Shown here piece by piece: positions 1 through 10,471 of a stretch of DNA of 10,471 nt. The first letter of the stretch is position 1. Every line of letters begins with the position of its first letter. The DNA is from a virus (lineage: Duplodnaviria; Heunggongvirae; Uroviricota; Caudoviricetes): IMG/VR virus record IMGVR_UViG_2675903650_000003, positions 1-10,471 of that record; one strand, 5' to 3'. A program made the translations under genes and the position numbers. Below the pieces are notes generated by a model. The model saw nothing but the letters and a program-made list of their open reading frames with translations, had not been told where the DNA came from and did not search any database.

Positions 1-50
1 GTGGATCACTTTTCATCCGTCGTTGACACTCCCATGAAAAGACGCACGGT

Positions 51-359
51 ATGCGGGGCTGGGAATGTATTGTTGACGGTGTATCGGGCTTTGATATCAA
101 ACAAGATAACCAGCGAACCTTCTCAATTTCTCTCGAAAGAGCAAGCGGTACTGTTGAAGTTAAGTCCTTTGACATCCCGGTAACTATCTATCGCGATGTA
201 TTCAAATCTGGTACCGAATATCAACCTGGCGATACGGTCACATGGGGTGGTTGTATGTGGCATTGCAACGAGAAAACATGCGACAAGCCAGGTGAGACAG
301 GATCGAAAGGATGGACGCTTGCTGTTAAGAAAGGGCGAGATCTGAGGGATAAGCCATGA
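51..359 (+). CDS. Hypothetical small protein (102 aa) upstream of the connector gene; contains a C-x2-H-C-x4-C motif
   Basis: First ATG after the in-frame stop at 24-26. Its stop overlaps the ATG of the next gene (ATGA at 356-359), indicating translational coupling. The translation has protein-like composition. Shine-Dalgarno is weak. Function unknown. Confidence 0.45.
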   Translation: MRGWECIVDGVSGFDIKQDNQRTFSISLERASGTVEVKSFDIPVTIYRDVFKSGTEYQPGDTVTWGGCMWHCNEKTCDKPGETGSKGWTLAVKKGRDLRDKP

Positions 360-2724: not shown

Positions 2725-3102
2725 ATGAAACTGACTCTGGATTCATTAAAACAGGCTGGTGCATTCACTGGGAGACCTGTTGAGAAGGAGATTACCTGGA
2801 AGCAGAGTGATAAGGAAATTACCGCTACCGTTTATATCCGACCTATGGGTTATCACGACGCAGTATCTACTGTTCTGTCAGCCGCGGGAAAGATTGATGG
2901 TGTTGCCGGACGTATCGCATCATCCATTTGTGATGAGAACGGGAATCCTGTTTTTACTGTTGCTGACATTACTGGTGAAGCAGACCCTGAGCGCGGTGCG
3001 CTCGACGGAAACCTTACCGTCGCTCTACTTGTCGCTATTCAGCAGGTTAACGACCTGGGAAAGACGAACTCAGCGCAGAAGACGAATTCTGGTGTGAATT
3101 AG
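2725..3102 (+). CDS. Tail assembly chaperone (lambda gpG-like), zero-frame product
   Basis: 125-aa acidic product directly upstream of the tape measure gene. RBS AAGAGAG at 2712-2718. Contains the slippery heptamer GGGAAAG near its 3' end. Confidence 0.8.
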   Translation: MKLTLDSLKQAGAFTGRPVEKEITWKQSDKEITATVYIRPMGYHDAVSTVLSAAGKIDGVAGRIASSICDENGNPVFTVADITGEADPERGALDGNLTVALLVAIQQVNDLGKTNSAQKTNSGVN

Positions 3103-3368
3103 TTCTCAACGGGATCGGCGGTCGCACCATTGCTGAAGCAAAAGAACGCGTTAGCGTTACAGAGTATCGCGACTGGGTTCTTTACCGTCAAAAGTACGGT
3201 AGCCTTAACGGAATGATGCGTACTGAGTGGGCCGCAGGCCTTATTTCTTCTGTGCTGGCTAACGTCAACCGTGGAAAAGATTCCCCCTCCTTCAAAGTAA
3301 CAGACTTCACACCACACATTAACGAGCCTTCCATTTCACTGGAGCAGGCTATGCAGGAGTGGACATAG
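2725..3368 (+). CDS. Tail assembly chaperone frameshift fusion product (lambda gpGT-like), made by -1 slip at 3057-3063
   Basis: The -1 frame (codons starting at positions divisible by 3) opens after a TAA at 3048-3050 and has no stop until TAG at 3366-3368, 2 nt before the tape measure ATG. Its translation reads ...DEFWCELVLNGIGGRTIAEAKERVSVTEYRDWVLYRQKYGSLNGMMRTEWAAGLISSVLANVNRGKDSPSFKVTDFTPHINEPSISLEQAMQEWT. No ATG-initiated + strand ORF of useful length covers 3103-3369. Confidence 0.65.
3057..3063 (+). promoter_or_regulatory. Programmed -1 ribosomal frameshift slippery heptamer G GGA AAG
   Basis: Heptamer GGGAAAG at 3057-3063 with zero-frame codons GGA (3058-3060) and AAG (3061-3063). 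This is the same heptamer as the lambda G/GT slip site. The -1 frame is open from 3051 to 3368. Confidence 0.65.
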
Positions 3369-3369
3369 C

Positions 3370-5895
3370 ATGGCTGGTAAATCCCTCGGAACGCTGACCA
3401 TTGACCTGATAGCTAAGGTTGGTGGATTTGTATCTGGTCTAAGCCAGGCTGAACGAGCATCTCAAAAATGGCGAAAACAGGTTCAGGCTGATGCAAAAGC
3501 GGCTGCGGTAGCATTTACTGGTTTTGCTACCGCGGCAAGTGCGGCAGCTATCGGTGTCGGTGTCGCCGGTTACAACCTGCTAAAAACAATGTCAAAACAG
3601 ATTACCGAAACAGACCGTTGGGCTAAGTCGCTCAATATGTCTACGCAGTCATTGCTTGCCTGGCAGTATGCAGCTGAAAAAGCTGGCGTATCCGGCGACC
3701 AGATGGCCGATATCTTCAAGGATATTGGCGATAAAATTGGCGATGCTGTACTGAATAAATCGGGTGAAGCAGTAGATGCTCTGAATGCACTCGGATTATC
3801 GGCTAAGAAATTATCCAGTGAATCACCAGATAAGCAGTTGCTGGCTATCAGCAATGCGCTCGGCAAGATTAAAACAAACGCTGAAAAGACCACAATCCTT
3901 GAAAGTCTTGGTAACGACCTTTCCAAGCTTCTCCCATTGCTTGATCAGGGAGGAGAAAAACTTCGTCAGTACATGGACGCGGCAAAACAGTTTGGCGTTG
4001 CCCCTGACGATGCTGATATCGAAAAGCTGGTAAAAGTAAACTCCCTGTTTGAGGACATGGAGACGCAGGTAAACGGTGTAAAAATTGAGATTGCCACCGG
4101 CCTGGCCAATGTTGACTTGTCAGGGTTACAGAACGCGATAACTGACATGGGGGATGTATTCAAAGATCCTCAGGTTATTCAGGGTTTGACAGACCTGGTT
4201 GGTGGTGTTGTTGATCTCGCGACCTGGCTTGTTAAAGTTGGTGCTGAAGCAGGGAAGCTAATTGACCTGTACAAAGGCGGTAAGGCTGTAGGTGACAATG
4301 CATCTGTAACTGATATAGAGCGCCGCCTCAACAATCTTAAAACTGATGTAGAAGATCAGGGATTCCTTGCCAGCTTTAACCGAATTGGTATGGACGTTGA
4401 CGGGAAAAAAGCTGAAATAGCGCAATTAGAACGCCGACTGTCCATCATGAAAGCCGGTAATAATCTTCCTCTCAGTCAGGCCACTGTAGGTGCGCCTTCT
4501 TCTTCCAGCAAAAATTATTCCTTAGGCTCAGGAGAAACTAACGGGAAAGCATCTCCAGATGCCGGGGCCAGAAAACTGGAGTCAGCATTTAAGTCTCTGG
4601 AAATGAGCTATCAGCGTCAGATAGCGCTGATTGACACAACTGGCAAAAAGAATCAGCAGGTAACCGAGCTTGAGAAGCTGCGTTTTGATTTTACATCTGG
4701 GAAATTAACAGGAATTAATGCAGCTCAGAAAGAGCGACTTGAGCAACTTGCTACTGAGATAGATCGCCTCAACTCACTTAAAAAAGCCAACGAAGAAAAT
4801 CTGAAACTTGTCGAATTTACCGCTAATTTACGTAAGCAAAATCAGAATGACCAGGCAGCTAATGATTCTGATTTTATCGGCGCAGGTATGGGAGACAAGA
4901 CTCGCCAGCGCATGAAGGAATTGCTGGATATCCATCGTAGTTTTCTCGACAGGCAGCAAGATCTACAGAAACAGTACCAAAGTGGTGATATAAGCAAATC
5001 GCTTTATGACCAGGAAACGGCAGCGTTACAGCAGGCGCTTGATGACCGTCTTGATATTCAGGAGGACTACTACAAAAAGTCTGATGCTCAGATGGGCGAC
5101 TGGCAAAGCGGGATAATGGACTCGTTGAACGATTATGCTGATAAATCAGCTGATTATTACCAGACTGCTGCAGATGCGATGACTTCTATTCTTGGTGGAG
5201 CAACCTCGGTTATTTCTGACAACCTTAATGACCTTGTGCACGGTGCAGAAGATTTAGGTGATTTCTTCAGTAATATTTTCTCTGGTCTTGGTGAAACAAT
5301 CATTAAAACCCTTTCTGATATGGCGGCGCAATGGCTGGTATATCAGGCAGTGCAATTGCTGGTAGGTAAATCCACTCAGGCAAGCGCAGCGGCATCAATG
5401 CTGGCAAACGCACAGGCATCATCTTTGCAGGCTCAAATCGCAGCATACGCATCGACAGCGGCAATTCCTATCGTTGGTCCCGCGCTTGCACCTGCAGCGA
5501 TGGCAACAGCTGCGGCAGTAACTGCACCACTTGTTGCAGCAGTTGGTACTTCTGCCCTGGCAGGTATGGCGCACGATGGTATTGATAGCGTCCCGGAAAC
5601 AGGAACATGGTTGCTCCAGAAAGGTGAGCGAGTTGTGACCTCTCAGACGTCAGCAAAGCTTGATGAAACACTGGACAGAGTAAATCAACAATCAACCAGC
5701 GGAGCAAGCTTCTCTCCCGTTATTAACATGAATGTTAACGGTGATCCGTCTGATACTCAGATCTCCATGATGAAGCAAGCCATGGCAGAGGGGGCAAAAC
5801 TTGGATATCAACAGGCAGCCAGCGACCTTGCCAGTGGGAAAGGTGACATTTCGAAAGCAATGATGCGCTGGAACACTAACAGGAGAACTGGTTAA
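3370..5895 (+). CDS. Tail tape measure protein (lambda gpH-like)
   Basis: 841-aa product. N-terminal region resembles the lambda-family tape measure domain. Long helical, coiled-coil-like middle. Ala/Gly-rich hydrophobic stretch near the C-terminus followed by WLLQKGERVV. Sits directly after G/GT and before the tail tip genes. Confidence 0.9.
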   Translation: MAGKSLGTLTIDLIAKVGGFVSGLSQAERASQKWRKQVQADAKAAAVAFTGFATAASAAAIGVGVAGYNLLKTMSKQITETDRWAKSLNMSTQSLLAWQYAAEKAGVSGDQMADIFKDIGDKIGDAVLNKSGEAVDALNALGLSAKKLSSESPDKQLLAISNALGKIKTNAEKTTILESLGNDLSKLLPLLDQGGEKLRQYMDAAKQFGVAPDDADIEKLVKVNSLFEDMETQVNGVKIEIATGLANVDLSGLQNAITDMGDVFKDPQVIQGLTDLVGGVVDLATWLVKVGAEAGKLIDLYKGGKAVGDNASVTDIERRLNNLKTDVEDQGFLASFNRIGMDVDGKKAEIAQLERRLSIMKAGNNLPLSQATVGAPSSSSKNYSLGSGETNGKASPDAGARKLESAFKSLEMSYQRQIALIDTTGKKNQQVTELEKLRFDFTSGKLTGINAAQKERLEQLATEIDRLNSLKKANEENLKLVEFTANLRKQNQNDQAANDSDFIGAGMGDKTRQRMKELLDIHRSFLDRQQDLQKQYQSGDISKSLYDQETAALQQALDDRLDIQEDYYKKSDAQMGDWQSGIMDSLNDYADKSADYYQTAADAMTSILGGATSVISDNLNDLVHGAEDLGDFFSNIFSGLGETIIKTLSDMAAQWLVYQAVQLLVGKSTQASAAASMLANAQASSLQAQIAAYASTAAIPIVGPALAPAAMATAAAVTAPLVAAVGTSALAGMAHDGIDSVPETGTWLLQKGERVVTSQTSAKLDETLDRVNQQSTSGASFSPVINMNVNGDPSDTQISMMKQAMAEGAKLGYQQAASDLASGKGDISKAMMRWNTNRRTG

Positions 5896-6368
5896 TGGCT
5901 AAAACGACCAGCATTAACTATCCGAATGATTACCTTCCTGTTCCATTGCAGGAAGGGTTCGGGTTAAAGCCAGTTAGCCCATTACTGAGAACCGAACTCA
6001 CATCCGGCAGGGCGAGGCAGAGGAGATTATATACTTCAACGCCAACTCAGGCCTCGGTTGCATGGCTGCTTACGGATCCGGAAGCTCAACTATTTGAGGT
6101 ATGGTTCAGGGACACCATTAAGGATGGCGCTGACTGGTTTAACATGCCTCTTCGATCTCCGTTAGGCGTTGTTGATGTTTATGTCTGTCGTTTCGTGGAT
6201 ATCTATGAGGGGCCGACAATTGAAGGCGGAAACTACTGGCGCTACACGGCCACGTTGGAATTGTGGGAAAGGCCTGTTCTGGCTCCTGGCTGGGCTGATT
6301 TTCCTGATTACATTATCAACAGCAGCATCATTGATATTGCGCTTAACAGGGAGTGGCCTGAGCCATGA
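5895..6368 (+). CDS. Minor tail protein, lambda gpM-like
   Basis: 157-aa product. Segment TQASVAWLLTDPEAQLFEVWFRDTIKDGADWFNMP aligns by eye with my recollection of the lambda gpM core (SVTLSVPREEATVLESFLEEHGGWKSFLWTP). TAATG overlap with the tape measure stop. First gene after the tape measure gene. Confidence 0.6.
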   Translation: MAKTTSINYPNDYLPVPLQEGFGLKPVSPLLRTELTSGRARQRRLYTSTPTQASVAWLLTDPEAQLFEVWFRDTIKDGADWFNMPLRSPLGVVDVYVCRFVDIYEGPTIEGGNYWRYTATLELWERPVLAPGWADFPDYIINSSIIDIALNREWPEP

Positions 6369-6847
6369 CGATTCTAAATAGGCTGTATGCCTCATCCGGG
6401 GAAGAGGTGATCATCGAAACCCTGCAAATAAACATCGGTACTGGTGTTTATTATCTTTGTAAAGGCTTCGATGACATCACCGCAACAACCGAAAGTGGCG
6501 TGGTGGTAACCTTTCAGGCTGCGGCTATTGATATTGCCCTTCCAGCAAGAAACAGCGATGGTACACAAGATTTGCAGTTTGCCATTGATAACATAGACGG
6601 GATTACTTCCACCGCCATACGGAATGCTCTGGATAACCTTTCAGAGGCATCGCTGACATATCGTAACTATGTCTCCACGGACCTCAGTGCTCCGGCATCT
6701 GTACCGTACACGCTGGCGATTAAAAGCGGGTCATGGACATCCATGCAGGCGCAGATTACTGCCGGATATATGAACGTTCTTGATACCGCATGGCCGCGCC
6801 ACCGATACACCCTCCCGTATTACCCCGGCCTTCGTTACATGAGTTAA
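6365..6847 (+). CDS. Minor tail protein, lambda gpL-like N-terminal domain only
   Basis: 160-aa product. VIIETLQINIGTGVYYLCKGF...VVVTFQAAAIDIALPARNSDGTQDLQFAIDN resembles my recollection of the lambda gpL N-terminal pattern (VVLWEIDLTEVGGERYFFCN...VTWQGRQYQPYPIQGSGFELNGKGTSTRPTLTVSN). It has a single Cys and no C-terminal Cys-rich region. ATGA overlap with the upstream gene. Confidence 0.55.
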   Translation: MTILNRLYASSGEEVIIETLQINIGTGVYYLCKGFDDITATTESGVVVTFQAAAIDIALPARNSDGTQDLQFAIDNIDGITSTAIRNALDNLSEASLTYRNYVSTDLSAPASVPYTLAIKSGSWTSMQAQITAGYMNVLDTAWPRHRYTLPYYPGLRYMS

Positions 6848-6856
6848 GGAGCAACA

Positions 6857-7237
6857 ATGTTCAATCCTGATAAATACCTTTCTGTCATATTGCAGAAGGG
6901 CGGTCGCACTTATCCTGAACTTGACTGCTTCGGCATAGTGAACGAGGTACGAAAAGACCTGGGGCTACCACTGTGGCCAGATTTTTCAGGTATAACAAAA
7001 GACGGCGGAGGTTTAAACCGAGAGGCCAGAAAGCTCATGCTTTCTCTGGAAAAATGCGCGCCGTGTATAGGTGCCGGTGCCGCCTGTTATTCCGGGTCAA
7101 CCGTTACTCATGTTGGTGTAGTCGTTGAAATTAACGGCCAATTGCATGTCGCAGAGTGCAACCCAGGAGTGAACGTTACCTTCCTTCCTGTCTCGCGTTT
7201 CAAACGTCGTTTTGTCAAAGTGGAGTTCTGGAAGTGA
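6857..7237 (+). CDS. Tail tip assembly protein with NlpC/P60-like papain-fold domain (lambda gpK-like, minimal)
   Basis: 126-aa product. LDCFGIV (Cys24, codon 6926-6928) matches the NlpC/P60 DCSG-type catalytic Cys motif. THVGVVV (His85, 7109-7111) and LHVAE (His97, 7145-7147) match the downstream His-containing motifs. Strong RBS AAGGAG at 6845-6850. Confidence 0.7.
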   Translation: MFNPDKYLSVILQKGGRTYPELDCFGIVNEVRKDLGLPLWPDFSGITKDGGGLNREARKLMLSLEKCAPCIGAGAACYSGSTVTHVGVVVEINGQLHVAECNPGVNVTFLPVSRFKRRFVKVEFWK

Positions 7238-9951
7238 CTATCAGAATTTATCCTTCACGGCTGCCTGGCGAGCCACTCGAAACTCATGAACATGGCGCAG
7301 TAACTATCCATCAGTGGCTTGCGAAGAACGTTCAGGGCTATAAGCCTGATATGAAGCACCCGATCACCGTTGATGTTGATGGAGAGAACATACCGCCTCA
7401 GGCATGGTTTGAATTTGCTATCAAATCAGACAGTGATGTCAGAATTTACCCTGTCCCTTATGGCGCTGTAGCTCTTGTCTGGATTGCCGTTGCTGTATCA
7501 GTTGCATCAGTCGCGTATGCTCTTTTCTTTGCTCCTGGTGTTGGTGACCTTGGCGGTTATTCATCAGGAACGGGAAACCCTCTTGATGTAAATCCTGCTA
7601 AAGCGAATAACGCAAAATTGGGCGACCCGATACGTGAGTTATTTGGACGAAGCCGTATTTATCCTGACTATGCAGTGCAGCCTGTAACAAGATTCTCAGT
7701 TGATGATCCAACGGTAATGACAGTTGAAATGTTTGTTGTTATGGGGAGAGGGCGTTTTTCATTTGGGGATGGCGATATTCGTGTAGGGTCAACTCCAATT
7801 GCTTCTCTTGGTGATGGGTTTAACTACACAGTGTATCAACCCGGGCAAAGCGTTAGTGGAGATCAACGATCAGAAAACTGGTTCAATTCCACAGAGGTTG
7901 GGGGAACCGCATCTGGTTCTGGTCTTGATATGGCGCAAACCGCGCCGGACACGGAAGATGTTGTTGCTAATTCGCTAACCGTTTCCGGACCAACAATAAC
8001 ATTTAATGGGCTGAGCACGGATGATGGAGATGAAACAACAAATGATCTTCCAGATACATGGACTGTTGGTGCAATTGTTGAGTTAATTGTTCCTGATTCC
8101 TATGTGGTAACTAATGATGGTGCTTACAGCAGAATTACCAGTGACACGCTGGAGGAAATAGCTCCTTATGTTGGGATGCCTGTAACTCTCTGGTACAACA
8201 GCATTGATTACCAACTATTCATTGCTGATTTTATACCTCACTCTGAGCCAGTCGGCGAAGATGTGATTACCGCATCAATAACCCTCGCTTACGATAGCGC
8301 CACTGGAACTCCGTTCACCGGGATTCCTGAAGGTTATGTCAGGCTATCTGTTTCCCATTCCGGAAGCGAATATAAGATTCTTGATATAGATGGTAGCTCT
8401 GTAACTCTGGAGCGGGTTATTGATGGCAGCGTTGATCCGTCATGGCCTGGATTTTCACCGCGCACAGTTCTTGATTTTGAAGCCAACGGTTTAAATGAGA
8501 ACGATAGTTGGATGGGACCTTTTCTGGCGTGCCCAGAAAATGAAGTTGTTGATATGTTCGAAGTAAACTTCTTCTTCCCAAACGGGATTTGTGGGTATAA
8601 CAAAAAAGGGAACAAACAATACCGTGAGGTAAAGTGGGAGATTCAGTACCGGCCATATGGTTCAGGCGTCGGGTGGATAAGTAAAACCGGATCGTACTAC
8701 CTCCAGAACATTAACGGACTGGGATTTACCGAAAGAATCACGCTGGATACGCCTGCGCTAGTAGAGGTGAGAGCTCGCCGCACGAACGAGCAGGGACAGA
8801 ATAACAGTCGCGATAACATGTACTGGCAGTCATTGCGAGGACGTTTGTTGTCACGGCCAGCATCGTATACTGGCGTCACCACAATTGCGGTTACTGTGGA
8901 AACTGGCGGTAAACTGGCAGCGCAGTCAGATCGCCGCGTAAACGTTGTAGCCACGCGAGTTTATGATTCTGGTGTGTCAAGGAGCATTTCTGGTGCTCTG
9001 TATCATATAGGTAATGAGTTGGGGCTAGCGATGGACCGTGAAGCTATTGACTCACTAGAAACTACTTACTGGACCCCTGGCAGTGAATTCTTTGACTATG
9101 CCACTACGGATTCTGTTTCTGCGCTGGAGATGCTTCAGAAGGTGACAAATGCAGGAAAAAGTTACTTCCTTCTTACCGATGGTCTGGCATCTGTAGCAAG
9201 GGAAGGTGTGAAAACGTGGACTGGAATAATCAGCCCACAGGAGATGACTGATCCGCTTCAGACTGCTTTCGTTGCTCCGTCAGCAGATGACTATGATGGT
9301 GTGGATGTTACATATATCAACGGCACTACATGGGCTGAAGAGACGGTGCAGTGCAGAACATCAGATAACCCAACTCCGGTAAAGATTGAGGACTATACGC
9401 TTGATGGTGTTCTTGACCAGGACCGTGCTTATCAGATAGGTATGCGACGTCTGATGAAGTACCTTCAGCAACGTTTGACTCATACCACAACAACGGAAAT
9501 GGATGCTCTCTGTTATAACGTTGGCGACAGGGTAGTATTCACGGATGATATTCCTGGTAGCAAAACAATAAGCACGTTGATTGAGGATATGAGTACAAGT
9601 GATGGCGTAACGACTATTACAGTATCAGAACCACTTGACTGGACATTCAACAACCCACGTGCATTGATACGCTATCAGGATGGTTCTGCTTCGGATTTGC
9701 TGGCAGCTACAAGGGTAAATGAATATGTTCTATCAGTAATAGAACAAGCAAAATTCAGCAATATCATGCTAAACGCCCCATCCATTGAATCGCCTCGTCT
9801 GATTTTCTGCGAGTCATCCCGTGTTGGATATAGCGCATTAATTTCAGAGATAGCACCGCAATCTGATGGAACATGTCAGGTAACGGCAAAAGAGTATCGC
9901 GACACTTTCTATCAGTACGATAACGCTACCTACCCCGGCAATGTAGCTTAA
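7234..9951 (+). CDS. Tail tip protein: lambda gpI-like N-terminal region fused in frame to a gpJ-like central tail fibre / host specificity protein
   Basis: Probable GTG start at 7234, overlapping the upstream stop (GTGA) with GGAG at 7222-7225. The track's ATG at 7156 lies inside the K-like gene. Residues 1-80 look ubiquitin-like, followed by a hydrophobic segment GAVALVWIAVAVSVASVAYALFFAPGV (about 7462-7545), then NNAKLGDPIRELFGRSRIY, which resembles lambda gpI (NVLPVLYGEMRVGS). The rest is a long beta-rich protein with J-like motifs (RRTNEQGQNNSRDNMYWQSLRGRLL). No stop codon separates the two parts. Confidence 0.7.
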   Translation: MTIRIYPSRLPGEPLETHEHGAVTIHQWLAKNVQGYKPDMKHPITVDVDGENIPPQAWFEFAIKSDSDVRIYPVPYGAVALVWIAVAVSVASVAYALFFAPGVGDLGGYSSGTGNPLDVNPAKANNAKLGDPIRELFGRSRIYPDYAVQPVTRFSVDDPTVMTVEMFVVMGRGRFSFGDGDIRVGSTPIASLGDGFNYTVYQPGQSVSGDQRSENWFNSTEVGGTASGSGLDMAQTAPDTEDVVANSLTVSGPTITFNGLSTDDGDETTNDLPDTWTVGAIVELIVPDSYVVTNDGAYSRITSDTLEEIAPYVGMPVTLWYNSIDYQLFIADFIPHSEPVGEDVITASITLAYDSATGTPFTGIPEGYVRLSVSHSGSEYKILDIDGSSVTLERVIDGSVDPSWPGFSPRTVLDFEANGLNENDSWMGPFLACPENEVVDMFEVNFFFPNGICGYNKKGNKQYREVKWEIQYRPYGSGVGWISKTGSYYLQNINGLGFTERITLDTPALVEVRARRTNEQGQNNSRDNMYWQSLRGRLLSRPASYTGVTTIAVTVETGGKLAAQSDRRVNVVATRVYDSGVSRSISGALYHIGNELGLAMDREAIDSLETTYWTPGSEFFDYATTDSVSALEMLQKVTNAGKSYFLLTDGLASVAREGVKTWTGIISPQEMTDPLQTAFVAPSADDYDGVDVTYINGTTWAEETVQCRTSDNPTPVKIEDYTLDGVLDQDRAYQIGMRRLMKYLQQRLTHTTTTEMDALCYNVGDRVVFTDDIPGSKTISTLIEDMSTSDGVTTITVSEPLDWTFNNPRALIRYQDGSASDLLAATRVNEYVLSVIEQAKFSNIMLNAPSIESPRLIFCESSRVGYSALISEIAPQSDGTCQVTAKEYRDTFYQYDNATYPGNVA

Positions 9952-10003: not shown

Positions 10004-10465
10004 ATGACGACTTATAATACTGGCAATCCGCTGGGGTCTTCTGCTGCAAAAGATTTGTACGATAACGCCCAGAACTTCGATCATCTTTCTAATGATCAAT
10101 CCAATGAGTTATGGCCTGATCGTTTTGGTAATCCACGTCTTACTTGGCATGGTATGGAGTCAAAGTACAAAGAATCATTGTCAAAAATGGGTTGGATACT
10201 AATAAAATCATTTCAGGTTGGCGCAGAGATAACCTTGACTAATCAGGCATTGCACGACGAAACCTCTGGCGAGTATTACCGTTGGGATGGTGTATTACCT
10301 AAAACCGTTCCTGCTGGCTCTACGCCAGAAACGACAGGTGGGATTGGATTAGGTGCGTGGGTTAGCGTGGGTGATGCTTCATTGCGTGGAGATCTACTCA
10401 GCTTAGATGGTGAAAAATATATCGGTATCTGTCCTGACATTGCGGTGATGCTGCCAACTTACTGA
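10004..10465 (+). CDS. Hypothetical protein resembling the N-terminal anchor region of a tail fibre or tailspike (153 aa)
   Basis: Good RBS and ATG. AT-rich relative to upstream genes. Motifs GNPLGSSAAKDLYDNAQNFDHLSN and GIGLGAWVSVGDASLRGDLLS are reminiscent of N-terminal adaptor regions of phage fibres or spikes, but this is recalled similarity, not verified. In-frame TGA at 10463-10465, only 6 nt before the window ends. Confidence 0.5.
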   Translation: MTTYNTGNPLGSSAAKDLYDNAQNFDHLSNDQSNELWPDRFGNPRLTWHGMESKYKESLSKMGWILIKSFQVGAEITLTNQALHDETSGEYYRWDGVLPKTVPAGSTPETTGGIGLGAWVSVGDASLRGDLLSLDGEKYIGICPDIAVMLPTY

Positions 10466-10471
10466 TTTAGT

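What the first reader, a model, noticed from the sequence alone, without database searches (positions are those of the whole stretch)
6857..7237. Minimal tail tip protein with intact NlpC/P60-type Cys-His-His motifs
The 126-aa protein carries D-C-F-G (Cys24), T-H-V-G (His85) and L-H-V-A-E (His97) at spacing typical of NlpC/P60 papain-fold hydrolases. As I recall, the lambda counterpart gpK is longer and carries an additional N-terminal MPN/JAB-type domain. Whether such tail-embedded domains act as peptidoglycan hydrolases during entry or as assembly proteases is not settled, and this stripped-down version is a clean test case.
Basis: partly seen in the sequence, partly recalled or inferred. 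Interest (0 to 1): 0.45.

Follow-up and report, generated by a model that had tools for sequence, protein, structure and literature searches.

The report
Small tail-tip NlpC/P60 cysteine peptidase
This 126-residue gene in a broken-down prophage encodes a small papain-like (NlpC/P60-type) enzyme that always sits in the phage tail-tip gene block; it is an ordinary member of a known kind of tail protein, its third catalytic residue is Glu100 rather than the proposed His97, and public databases widely mislabel it a "nitrite transporter".

The parts
6857..7237 (+). 126-aa stand-alone NlpC/P60-superfamily (papain-like) tail-tip protein; the finding itself
6846..6851 (+). AAGGAG ribosome-binding site, 5 nt upstream of the ATG
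   Evidence: Read directly from the sequence.
6890..6892 (+). Codon 12, TTG (Leu). This is the Cys-minus-12 position of the NlpC/P60 signature Tyr. It is Y or W in all homologs, so this is a W12L change (TGG to TTG) unique to this lineage.
   Evidence: W in 117 of 117 close homologs; the intact TST3 relative has W. BcYkfC has Tyr226/Cys238 (PMC3142127). Spr alignment.
6926..6928 (+). Codon 24, TGC: the catalytic Cys in the D-C-x-G motif at the start of helix 24-34
   Evidence: Invariant in 118 of 118 and in all 112 aligned diverse representatives. Aligns to the Spr/MepS catalytic Cys motif.
7109..7111 (+). Codon 85, CAT: the catalytic His on strand 82-92
   Evidence: Invariant in 118 of 118. 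Aligns to the catalytic His of Spr, 8ev4 and 3kw0.
7145..7147 (+). It is not conserved and is not the third triad residue.
   Evidence: position 97 reads M/W/H/R/Q/A/K/V/S.
7154..7156 (+). Codon 100, GAG: Glu100, the inferred third triad residue (His+15), within an E-x-N motif
   Evidence: E or D in 118 of 118. E52/D29/H28/N1 in diverse representatives. Gapless alignment to BcPPNE His49...Glu64, which is that enzyme's crystallographic triad (PMC3142127).
3370..5895 (+). Tail tape measure protein (841 aa)
   Evidence: Pfam Tape_meas_lam_C and phrog_2854 at E = 4.6e-280.
5895..6368 (+). 157-aa tail-tip protein (phrog_384), first gene after the tape measure
   Evidence: Same position in relatives.
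6365..6847 (+). DUF1833 minor tail protein (160 aa), always immediately upstream of the target
   Evidence: Pfam PF08875 at E = 2.5e-39 and phrog_396. Synteny.
7234..9951 (+). J-like tip attachment / host specificity protein (905 aa). Its GTG start overlaps the target's stop (GTGA).
   Evidence: NF040662 TipJ-related at E = 1.3e-129, FNIII-A_GpJ, Phage-tail_3 and phrog_469. Gene call.
10004..10465 (+). N-terminal fragment (153 aa) of a tailspike, cut by IS1. The window appears to end in the IS1 terminal repeat (about 10444-10471).
   Evidence: Pfam Tail_spike_N. It aligns only to residues 1-145 of the 638-aa TST3 tailspike. IS1 genes follow in the genome loci. Identifying the repeat as IS1 rests on my own recollection of that sequence.
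51..359 (+). Truncated gene: the C-terminal third of a 294-aa protein of the intact prophage. It marks the left-hand break of the remnant.
   Evidence: 98% identity to residues 193-294 of the TST3 protein. IS21 and an integrase lie directly upstream in the genome loci.

Best explanation
The gene encodes a stand-alone, canonical-topology NlpC/P60-superfamily (clan CA, papain-like) cysteine peptidase. It is a fixed component of a 'DUF1833-type' siphophage tail-tip module. Shown: the fold; an invariant Cys24/His85 dyad; an always-polar third position at residue 100 (Glu here), not His97; a signature aromatic residue at Cys-12; strict synteny and start/stop overlap with DUF1833 upstream and the J-like protein downstream; and shared PHROG family membership with the NlpC/P60 domain of lambda gpK. 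Inferred: like RcGTA g14 and the R4C peptidase, one or a few copies are built into, or needed to build, the tail-tip initiator complex. On infection the protein is released with the tape measure protein and cuts peptidoglycan stem peptides locally, most likely at the gamma-D-Glu-mDAP bond typical of NlpC/P60 enzymes, so that the tape measure and DNA can cross the cell wall. It is not the lysis enzyme. In this window the gene is a relic: the prophage has lost its head genes and tailspike to IS elements, and the copy carries a unique W12L change at the oxyanion-hole signature position that may impair catalysis.
Against: No member of this family has any biochemical or virion-proteomic data that I could find. 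The window protein does not reach the Pfam NLPC_P60 gathering score; its only hit is a sub-threshold CHAP match of 17.1 bits against a cutoff of 26. Lambda gpK was not detected in virions by mass spectrometry and is unresolved in all structures (PMC10721106, PMC12617516). Early RcGTA proteomics did not detect p14 either (PMC3423380). So virion carriage is uncertain for the whole kind. The whole enterobacterial clade has Trp rather than Tyr at the signature position, so its chemistry may differ from classic NlpC/P60 enzymes.
Confidence: 0.55

Rival explanations
1. Assembly-only enzyme. Like lambda gpK as currently viewed, the protein is a non-structural factor that acts in the producing cell during tail-tip (initiator) assembly. 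For example, it might process a tail protein such as the tape measure or the N-terminus of the J-like protein. It is not carried into the next host and does not cut peptidoglycan in vivo.
For: gpK is required for tail assembly but absent from virion mass spectrometry and unresolved in structures (PMC10721106, PMC12617516), and its F-pyocin counterpart PyoF8 is also unresolved (PMC13455828). Deleting g14 gives heads without tails (PMC7296036). The gene shares phrog_329 with gpK's NlpC domain. It has tight start/stop overlap with DUF1833 and J.
Against: g14 degrades peptidoglycan in a zymogram (PMC3423380). RcGTA and R4C maps show an unassigned or unmodeled density of the right size in the tail lumen (PMC7296036, PMC10276861). 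The best structural matches are all peptidoglycan endopeptidases. No candidate cleavage substrate has been demonstrated.
Confidence: 0.25
2. CHAP-type or otherwise non-canonical amidase. Given its Cys-His-Glu(-x-Asn) arrangement and sub-threshold CHAP and C92 matches, the enzyme cleaves a different bond from classic NlpC/P60 DL-endopeptidases. Candidates are the MurNAc-L-Ala bond, a cross-bridge, or a lipid or lipoprotein amide.
For: The only Pfam hit of the window protein is CHAP (E = 0.0082, residues 23-102). 24 of 118 members hit CHAP and 7 hit Peptidase_C92. The His+15 Glu spacing equals that of YiiX and BcPPNE (PMC3142127). Trp replaces the signature Tyr in the enterobacterial clade.
Confidence: 0.1
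3. One reading: an intact Cys24-His85-His97 NlpC/P60 triad.
For: The His85-to-His97 spacing of 12 equals the canonical spacing (BcYkfC His291/His303, PMC3142127). A single-sequence phmmer alignment places His97 opposite Spr's third His.
Against: Position 97 is H in only 26 of 61 close homologs and 13 of 118 overall, and is often M, W, R, A, K or L, which cannot orient a His. In the model's hairpin (strand 82-92, two-residue turn 93-94, strand 95-102), a regular register puts residue 97 opposite residue 90 and on the other face of the sheet from His85. Residues 100 and 102 share His85's face; this last point is inference from the DSSP string.
Confidence: 0.03
4. The database label is right: the protein is a nitrite (FNT-family) transporter.
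For: Only the propagated names in NCBI/RefSeq and phage records.
Against: There is no Pfam or NCBIfam transporter hit at E <= 1. The protein is a 126-aa soluble alpha/beta papain-like domain. It always lies inside a tail-tip gene block.
Confidence: 0.01

Closest known systems
RcGTA g14 (Rcc01697, 'p14') and the roseophage R4C peptidase vBDshSR4C_015: stand-alone tail NlpC/P60 peptidases
   Same: Both are small stand-alone NlpC/P60-type proteins (g14 is 150 aa) encoded in the tail-tip block just before the large J/megatron protein, and separate from the lysis genes. g14 clears peptidoglycan in a zymogram, is needed for functional tails, and is proposed to sit as a monomer in the tail lumen next to the tape measure C-terminus (PMC3423380, PMC7296036, PMC10276861). 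The window gene has the same position and size class.
   Different: g14 has a canonical Cys-His-His triad (PMC3423380), whereas this family has Cys-His-Glu/Asp. Only 1 of 118 members touches the g14-type model TIGR02219 (E = 1.3e-4). The upstream neighbours here are phrog_384 and DUF1833 proteins. I did not test whether those are related to the RcGTA distal tail and hub proteins.
Bacteriophage lambda gpK (tail assembly protein K, annotated 'C40 family peptidase')
   Same: Both are encoded between the L-position gene and J in a siphophage tail-tip block. Both have an NlpC/P60 domain (Pfam E = 3.4e-13 for K). K's domain (residues 68-178) hits the same region of phrog_329 (E = 7.3e-10) as the window protein (E = 1.2e-10).
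   Different: K is longer and carries an N-terminal JAB/MPN-type segment (Prok-JAB E = 6e-5, just below the cutoff). It is followed by a separate gene I, which is absent here. Direct profile-to-sequence comparison of the family with K is not significant (hhalign probability 2.4%).
Canonical bacterial NlpC/P60 DL-endopeptidases (E. coli Spr/MepS, B. subtilis LytE/CwlO, E. faecium SagA, C. difficile Acd24020)
   Different: Sequence identity is only 13-18%. This protein has no signal peptide, lipobox or cell-wall-binding domain. Its third triad residue is Glu at His+15 rather than His at His+12, and the hairpin carrying it is longer. The signature Tyr is replaced by Trp in the clade and by Leu in this copy.
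YaeF/YiiX-like permuted NlpC/P60 enzymes (BcPPNE 3kw0, YiiX 2if6; Pfam Peptidase_C92)
   Same: They have an identical His...(15)...Glu arrangement. The family profile aligns without gaps over 43 residues to BcPPNE, including His49 and Glu64 (PMC3142127).

Membership tests
NlpC/P60 superfamily (MEROPS C40 / Pfam clan Peptidase_CA) | Papain-like alpha+beta fold, with an N-terminal helix followed by an antiparallel beta-sheet | tested here: met
NlpC/P60 superfamily (MEROPS C40 / Pfam clan Peptidase_CA) | Invariant catalytic Cys at the helix N-terminus (D-C-x-G) and invariant catalytic His on a beta-strand | tested here: met
   C24 and H85 are 118 of 118 and are kept in all full-length diverse representatives. 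They align to the Spr/MepS motifs.
NlpC/P60 superfamily (MEROPS C40 / Pfam clan Peptidase_CA) | A polar third triad residue (His/Glu/Asp/Asn/Gln) that orients the His | tested here: met
   It is met at position 100, not 97: E or D in 118 of 118 and E52/D29/H28/N1 in the diverse set, and it aligns to Glu64 of BcPPNE (PMC3142127). The geometry itself could not be measured because no coordinates were available.
NlpC/P60 superfamily (MEROPS C40 / Pfam clan Peptidase_CA) | Conserved 'signature' Tyr 12 residues before the Cys (equivalent to papain Gln19) | tested here: not met
   The family has Y in 102 of 118 and W in 15 of 118, but the window copy has Leu12. The intact TST3 relative has W. So the feature is met for most of the family, altered in the enterobacterial clade, and lost in this copy.
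NlpC/P60 superfamily (MEROPS C40 / Pfam clan Peptidase_CA) | Pfam PF00877 (NLPC_P60) match above the gathering score | tested here: not met
   The window protein has no PF00877 hit at E <= 1. 43 of 118 members hit at E <= 0.01, with a best of 2.4e-5. Membership is therefore at superfamily level, resting on fold and motifs.
NlpC/P60 superfamily (MEROPS C40 / Pfam clan Peptidase_CA) | Thiol-dependent hydrolysis of a peptidoglycan amide bond | not testable with these tools
   This needs a zymogram or muropeptide analysis. The only precedent is RcGTA g14 (PMC3423380).
Lambda gpK-type tail assembly protein | NlpC/P60 domain encoded between the L-position gene and J | tested here: met
   Gene order. 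Shared phrog_329 region.
Lambda gpK-type tail assembly protein | N-terminal JAB/MPN domain fused to the NlpC/P60 domain | tested here: not met
   The 126 aa are fully taken up by one NlpC/P60 domain and there is no JAB hit. K has a Prok-JAB match. All family representatives are 115-205 aa.
Lambda gpK-type tail assembly protein | Separate downstream gene I (Lambda_tail_I, ubiquitin-like) | tested here: not met
   There is no ORF between the target and J. A gpI-like module at the N-terminus of J is only hinted at: ThiS at E = 0.085, Lambda_tail_I at E = 0.035 in L011, and hhalign probability 1.6%.
RcGTA g14-type phage cell wall peptidase (NCBIfam TIGR02219) | Match to TIGR02219 | tested here: not met
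   The window protein has no hit at E <= 1. 1 of 118 members hits, at E = 1.3e-4.
RcGTA g14-type phage cell wall peptidase (NCBIfam TIGR02219) | Stand-alone small peptidase gene immediately upstream of the J/megatron gene, apart from the lysis genes | tested here: met
   g14 is described in PMC7296036.
RcGTA g14-type phage cell wall peptidase (NCBIfam TIGR02219) | Cys-His-His triad | tested here: not met
   The third residue is Glu/Asp in this clade. g14 has Cys-His-His (PMC3423380). 28 diverse relatives do have His at position 100.
CHAP domain (Pfam PF05257) | Match above the gathering score, and best structural similarity to CHAP domains | tested here: not met
Formate/nitrite transporter (the propagated database name) | Polytopic membrane protein with an FNT-family profile match | tested here: not met
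   No such Pfam or NCBIfam hit. The protein is a soluble 126-aa papain-like domain.

The most novel reading that the evidence does not exclude
The family is not a cell-wall enzyme. It is a minimal, JAB-less version of the lambda K/I system: a dedicated maturation peptidase whose substrate is the small beta-grasp-like N-terminal module of the adjacent J-like protein (a possible I-J fusion), or the tape measure protein. Cleavage would license tail-tip assembly. The Cys-His-Glu triad and the Trp at the signature position would then reflect a protein substrate rather than a peptidoglycan one.
Probability: 0.12. Interest if true: 0.6.

Novelty: new member of a known kind. Interest (0 to 1): 0.3.

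Why it matters
There are three modest points.

1. The role of tail-tip NlpC/P60 proteins is still open. Lambda gpK has been known genetically for decades, yet it is not seen in virions and has no assigned activity. This widespread single-domain family, found in Klebsiella, E. coli, Citrobacter and Salmonella prophages and in the Pseudomonas D3/phi297/PAJU2 group, offers a simpler system without the JAB domain or gene I. The experiment should use an intact relative, not this relic copy.

2. The correct catalytic residues to mutate are Cys24, His85 and Glu100, plus Trp/Tyr12. His97 is not one of them.

3. The family lacks a curated model. Hundreds of genome and phage records name it 'nitrite transporter', and name the J-like neighbour 'kinase'. 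Such labels could in principle be mistaken for phage-borne metabolic genes. That last point is my inference; I did not show that it has happened.

Tried and rejected
- **Phage DNA search:** megablast of 5800-7400 against deposited phages found nothing. Only protein-level searches found relatives.
- **Direct sequence links:** phmmer of the window protein against the PDB gave only weak hits to Spr/MepS (E = 0.24-0.51) and chance-level fibrillarin hits. The NCBIfam hits were chance-level too.
- **Family versus lambda K:** hhalign of the family profile against the lambda K sequence was not significant (probability 2.4%). The link to K rests on the shared phrog_329 region instead.
- **gpI-like N-terminus on the J-like protein:** BLASTP gave E = 4 and hhalign gave probability 1.6%. 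The only other hints were sub-threshold ThiS and Lambda_tail_I matches. This stays unproven.
- **Metal site:** C67, C70, C77 and C101 are not a metal or Fe-S site. They are clade-specific and swap with V, A, I, T and G, as buried core positions do.
- **Active-site geometry:** model coordinates are not exposed, so the His85-Glu100 and His85-His97 distances could not be measured. The choice of residue rests on conservation and on alignment to BcPPNE.
- **Literature:** I found no virion proteomics for phages carrying this family, and one such query failed on a term-length rule. A PNAS paper that mentions viral nirC could not be linked to this family.

Full report
**1. Observation**

The ORF is real. 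It runs from the ATG at 6857 to the TGA at 7235-7237 on the + strand and encodes 126 aa. An AAGGAG ribosome-binding site lies 5 nt upstream, and the stop overlaps the GTG start of the next gene as GTGA.

**2. Context**

The window holds the neck-and-tail half of a siphovirus prophage. From 3370 onward the genes are:
- a tape measure protein (3370-5895);
- a 157-aa phrog_384 protein (5895-6368);
- a DUF1833 protein (6365-6847);
- the target;
- a 905-aa TipJ-related protein (7234-9951);
- the first 153 aa of a tailspike (10004-10465).

The same order holds in Erwinia phage Gungnir39, in Pseudomonas phage D3 (where two extra small genes are inserted) and in phage TPWB-08. It also holds in three distant metagenomic contigs, where the start and stop codons overlap on both sides of the gene. 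The protein is therefore a fixed part of a 'DUF1833-type' tail-tip module.

**3. Fold**

Foldseek against the PDB agreed, with MepS at TM 0.58-0.61, although its E-values were weaker.

At the sequence level the window protein gives only a sub-threshold CHAP hit, at 17.1 bits against a cutoff of 26. Across the 118 family members, however, 43 hit NLPC_P60, 24 hit CHAP and 7 hit Peptidase_C92 at E <= 0.01. The family profile also finds Spr/MepS in the PDB (E = 7e-4) and aligns the Y-x-x-G-G...D-C-x-G and H-V-G motifs. The papain-like NlpC/P60 assignment is therefore sound at superfamily level.

**4. Catalytic residues**

Cys24 and His85 are invariant in 118 of 118 sequences. They are also kept in every full-length representative from an exhaustive HMMER search of 1.84 billion cluster representatives. 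That search found 185 hits at E <= 0.001.

His97 fails the conservation test:
- Among homologs with more than 72% identity it reads H26/Q20/Y7/M6/L1/C1.
- In the 118-sequence set it reads M27/W14/H13/R11/Q10/A8 and others.
- In the diverse representatives it reads K/A/R/W/M/Q/V/S.

Position 100 passes the test:
- It is E83/D35, that is 118 of 118 acidic, in the 118-sequence set.
- It is E52/D29/H28/N1 in the diverse set. These are the residues allowed at the third triad position of NlpC/P60 enzymes, including the canonical His.
- The family profile aligns without gaps over 43 residues to BcPPNE (3kw0). That alignment puts His85 on its His and Glu100 on its Glu, 15 residues later. Those are His49 and Glu64, BcPPNE's crystallographic triad. 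YiiX has the same His49/Glu64 pair. The canonical BcYkfC uses His291/His303, a spacing of 12 (PMC3142127).

So the triad is Cys24-His85-Glu100.

The DSSP string points the same way. With strand 82-92, a two-residue turn at 93-94 and strand 95-102, a regular hairpin would put residues 100 and 102 on His85's face of the sheet and residue 97 on the other face. That last step is my inference; I could not get coordinates to measure it.

**5. The signature aromatic residue, and the state of this copy**

NlpC/P60 enzymes have a fourth catalytic residue, a Tyr 12 residues before the Cys. In BcYkfC it is Tyr226 with Cys238. It is equivalent to papain Gln19 and is described as apparently essential (PMC3142127). 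Here that is residue 12.

The family has Tyr in 102 of 118 sequences and Trp in 15 of 118. All 117 close enterobacterial homologs have Trp. The window alone has Leu, from a single-base change of TGG to TTG at 6890-6892. The nearest intact relative, the E. coli TST3 prophage at 98.4% DNA identity, has Trp12.

The Leu12 allele is not a sequencing error. The exact protein is indexed in 379 blocks of the assembly collection, and three of the places returned lie on NCBI chromosome-scale records. Source names for this exact sequence say E. coli.

In those genomes the prophage is a remnant:
- An integrase and IS21/IS3-type genes abut the neck genes. No terminase, portal or capsid genes are present.
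- The window's first ORF is the C-terminal third of a 294-aa protein of the intact phage.
- The tailspike aligns only to residues 1-145 of 638. IS1 follows it in the genome loci.
- TST3 carries the intact version at the same yecA site, with its own holins and a GH19 endolysin.

So the window copy cannot currently contribute to a virion, and it has a substitution at a catalytic-signature position. It is a poor 'clean test case'.

**6. Relation to known proteins**

Lambda K matches Pfam NLPC_P60 (E = 3.4e-13, residues 63-176). It also has a partial Prok-JAB match at its N-terminus (E = 6e-5, just below the cutoff). K's NlpC domain hits the same region of phrog_329 (profile 558-657, E = 7.3e-10) as the window protein (543-655, E = 1.2e-10) and its distant relatives. 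The direct hhalign comparison was not significant.

The module here has no JAB domain and no separate gene I. Every representative of the family is a stand-alone protein of about 115-205 aa, so 'minimal' is the family norm.

The closest functional precedent is RcGTA g14:
- It is a 150-residue stand-alone NlpC/P60 protein with a Cys-His-His triad.
- It clears peptidoglycan in a zymogram and is not needed for release.
- It is needed for gene transfer. In a later study its deletion gave heads without tails.
- An unassigned density of monomer size sits in the tail lumen between the tape measure C-termini and the megatron iris (PMC3423380, PMC7296036).

Roseophage R4C likewise lists an unmodeled peptidase near the distal end of the tape measure among its 12 virion components (PMC10276861).

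By contrast, lambda gpK was not detected by virion mass spectrometry and is unresolved in all maps (PMC10721106, PMC12617516). Its F-pyocin counterpart PyoF8 is also unresolved (PMC13455828).

Only 1 of 118 members touches the g14-type model TIGR02219. This family is a separate branch.

The BFVD fold search also found the same fold embedded in J-type proteins of 1286-1483 aa (TMq 0.79 for the 1483-aa example). Such a fusion argues for a physical association with the tail tip.

**7. Mechanism**

Shown: a canonical-topology NlpC/P60-fold protein; a strictly conserved Cys/His dyad plus a polar third residue; a constant tail-tip position; and a location apart from the lysis genes.

Inferred: it is a thiol peptidase that is built into the tail-tip initiator complex or is needed to build it. 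On infection it is released with the tape measure and locally cuts peptidoglycan stem peptides.

The main rival is an assembly-only role like the one currently assumed for gpK. A second rival is a non-canonical bond specificity, suggested by the CHAP/C92-like Glu and the Trp at the signature site. The 'nitrite transporter' name that NCBI/PGAP and many phage records attach to this family has no support from profiles, fold or context. The same holds for the 'kinase' name on the J-like neighbour.

**8. Verdict**

- The fold, the Cys and the His are correct.
- The third residue is Glu100, not His97.
- 'Intact' does not hold for this copy.

This is a new, uncurated member of a known kind of tail-tip peptidase. 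Its interest is modest. It lies mainly in offering an intact relative as a simple model for the open gpK/g14 question, and in correcting a widespread misannotation.

Noticed in passing
window 6857-7237 and 7234-9951; also L009 21058-24152 and hits H1-H25: This tail protein family is named 'nitrite transporter' (or 'formate/nitrite family transporter') in NCBI/RefSeq genomes and in many Klebsiella and E. coli phage records. The adjacent J-like tail protein is often named 'kinase'. Profiles, fold and context all contradict both names.
   Followed up: yes
window 1-359 and 10004-10471; loci L004-L006: The window is an IS-bounded remnant of a prophage integrated next to yecA. The left ORF (51-359) is the C-terminal third of a 294-aa protein of the intact E. 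coli TST3 prophage. The tailspike is cut after about 147 residues and the window seems to end in the IS1 terminal repeat. In the genome loci no terminase, portal or capsid genes remain, and an integrase and IS21/IS3 genes abut the neck genes.
   Followed up: yes
window 6890-6892: A single-base change (TGG to TTG) gives Leu12 where every close homolog has Trp and most distant ones have Tyr. This is the NlpC/P60 'signature tyrosine' position. The allele is fixed in a widely sequenced E. coli lineage: 379 index blocks, with three of the returned places on chromosome-scale NCBI records.
   Followed up: yes
window 7234-7700 (N-terminus of the J-like protein): The first 160 or so residues look like a small beta-rich domain, then a hydrophobic helix (about residues 76-104), then a conserved N..KLG.PI.E.FGR motif. 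That order is reminiscent of lambda gpI, so this may be an I-J fusion. Support is only sub-threshold: ThiS at E = 0.085, Lambda_tail_I at E = 0.035 in a distant homolog, and hhalign probability 1.6%.
   Followed up: partly
window 7055-7159 (codons 67, 70, 77, 101): Four extra cysteines are near-invariant in the enterobacterial clade (CCCC in 55 of 61). Elsewhere in the family they swap with V, A, I, T and G, so they look like buried core positions rather than a metal or Fe-S site.
   Followed up: yes
L008 4277-4876 (lambda K as annotated in NC_001416): The annotated 199-aa lambda K matches only the last third of the Prok-JAB profile (positions 63-112 of 114) at its extreme N-terminus. A 149-base unannotated gap lies upstream, after gene L. 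The JAB domain may therefore be cut short by the annotated start codon.
   Followed up: no
window 3213-3368 and 2725-3102: The tail assembly chaperone (Phage_TAC_13, 2725-3102) is followed by a 51-aa ORF (3213-3368). That ORF matches genes called Phage_tail_T (weak) in the genome loci and 'tail assembly protein T' in TST3, which suggests the usual G/T-type frameshift chaperone pair. I did not look for a slippery site.
   Followed up: no
loci L004-L006, downstream of the tailspike fragment: An OafA-like O-antigen acyltransferase (Acyl_transf_3 + SGNH, 653 aa) lies next to the remnant and is itself fragmented in L004. The intact TST3 prophage carries a gtrA/gtrB/glucosyltransferase cassette at the equivalent place. 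These look like different serotype-conversion modules on related phages.
   Followed up: no
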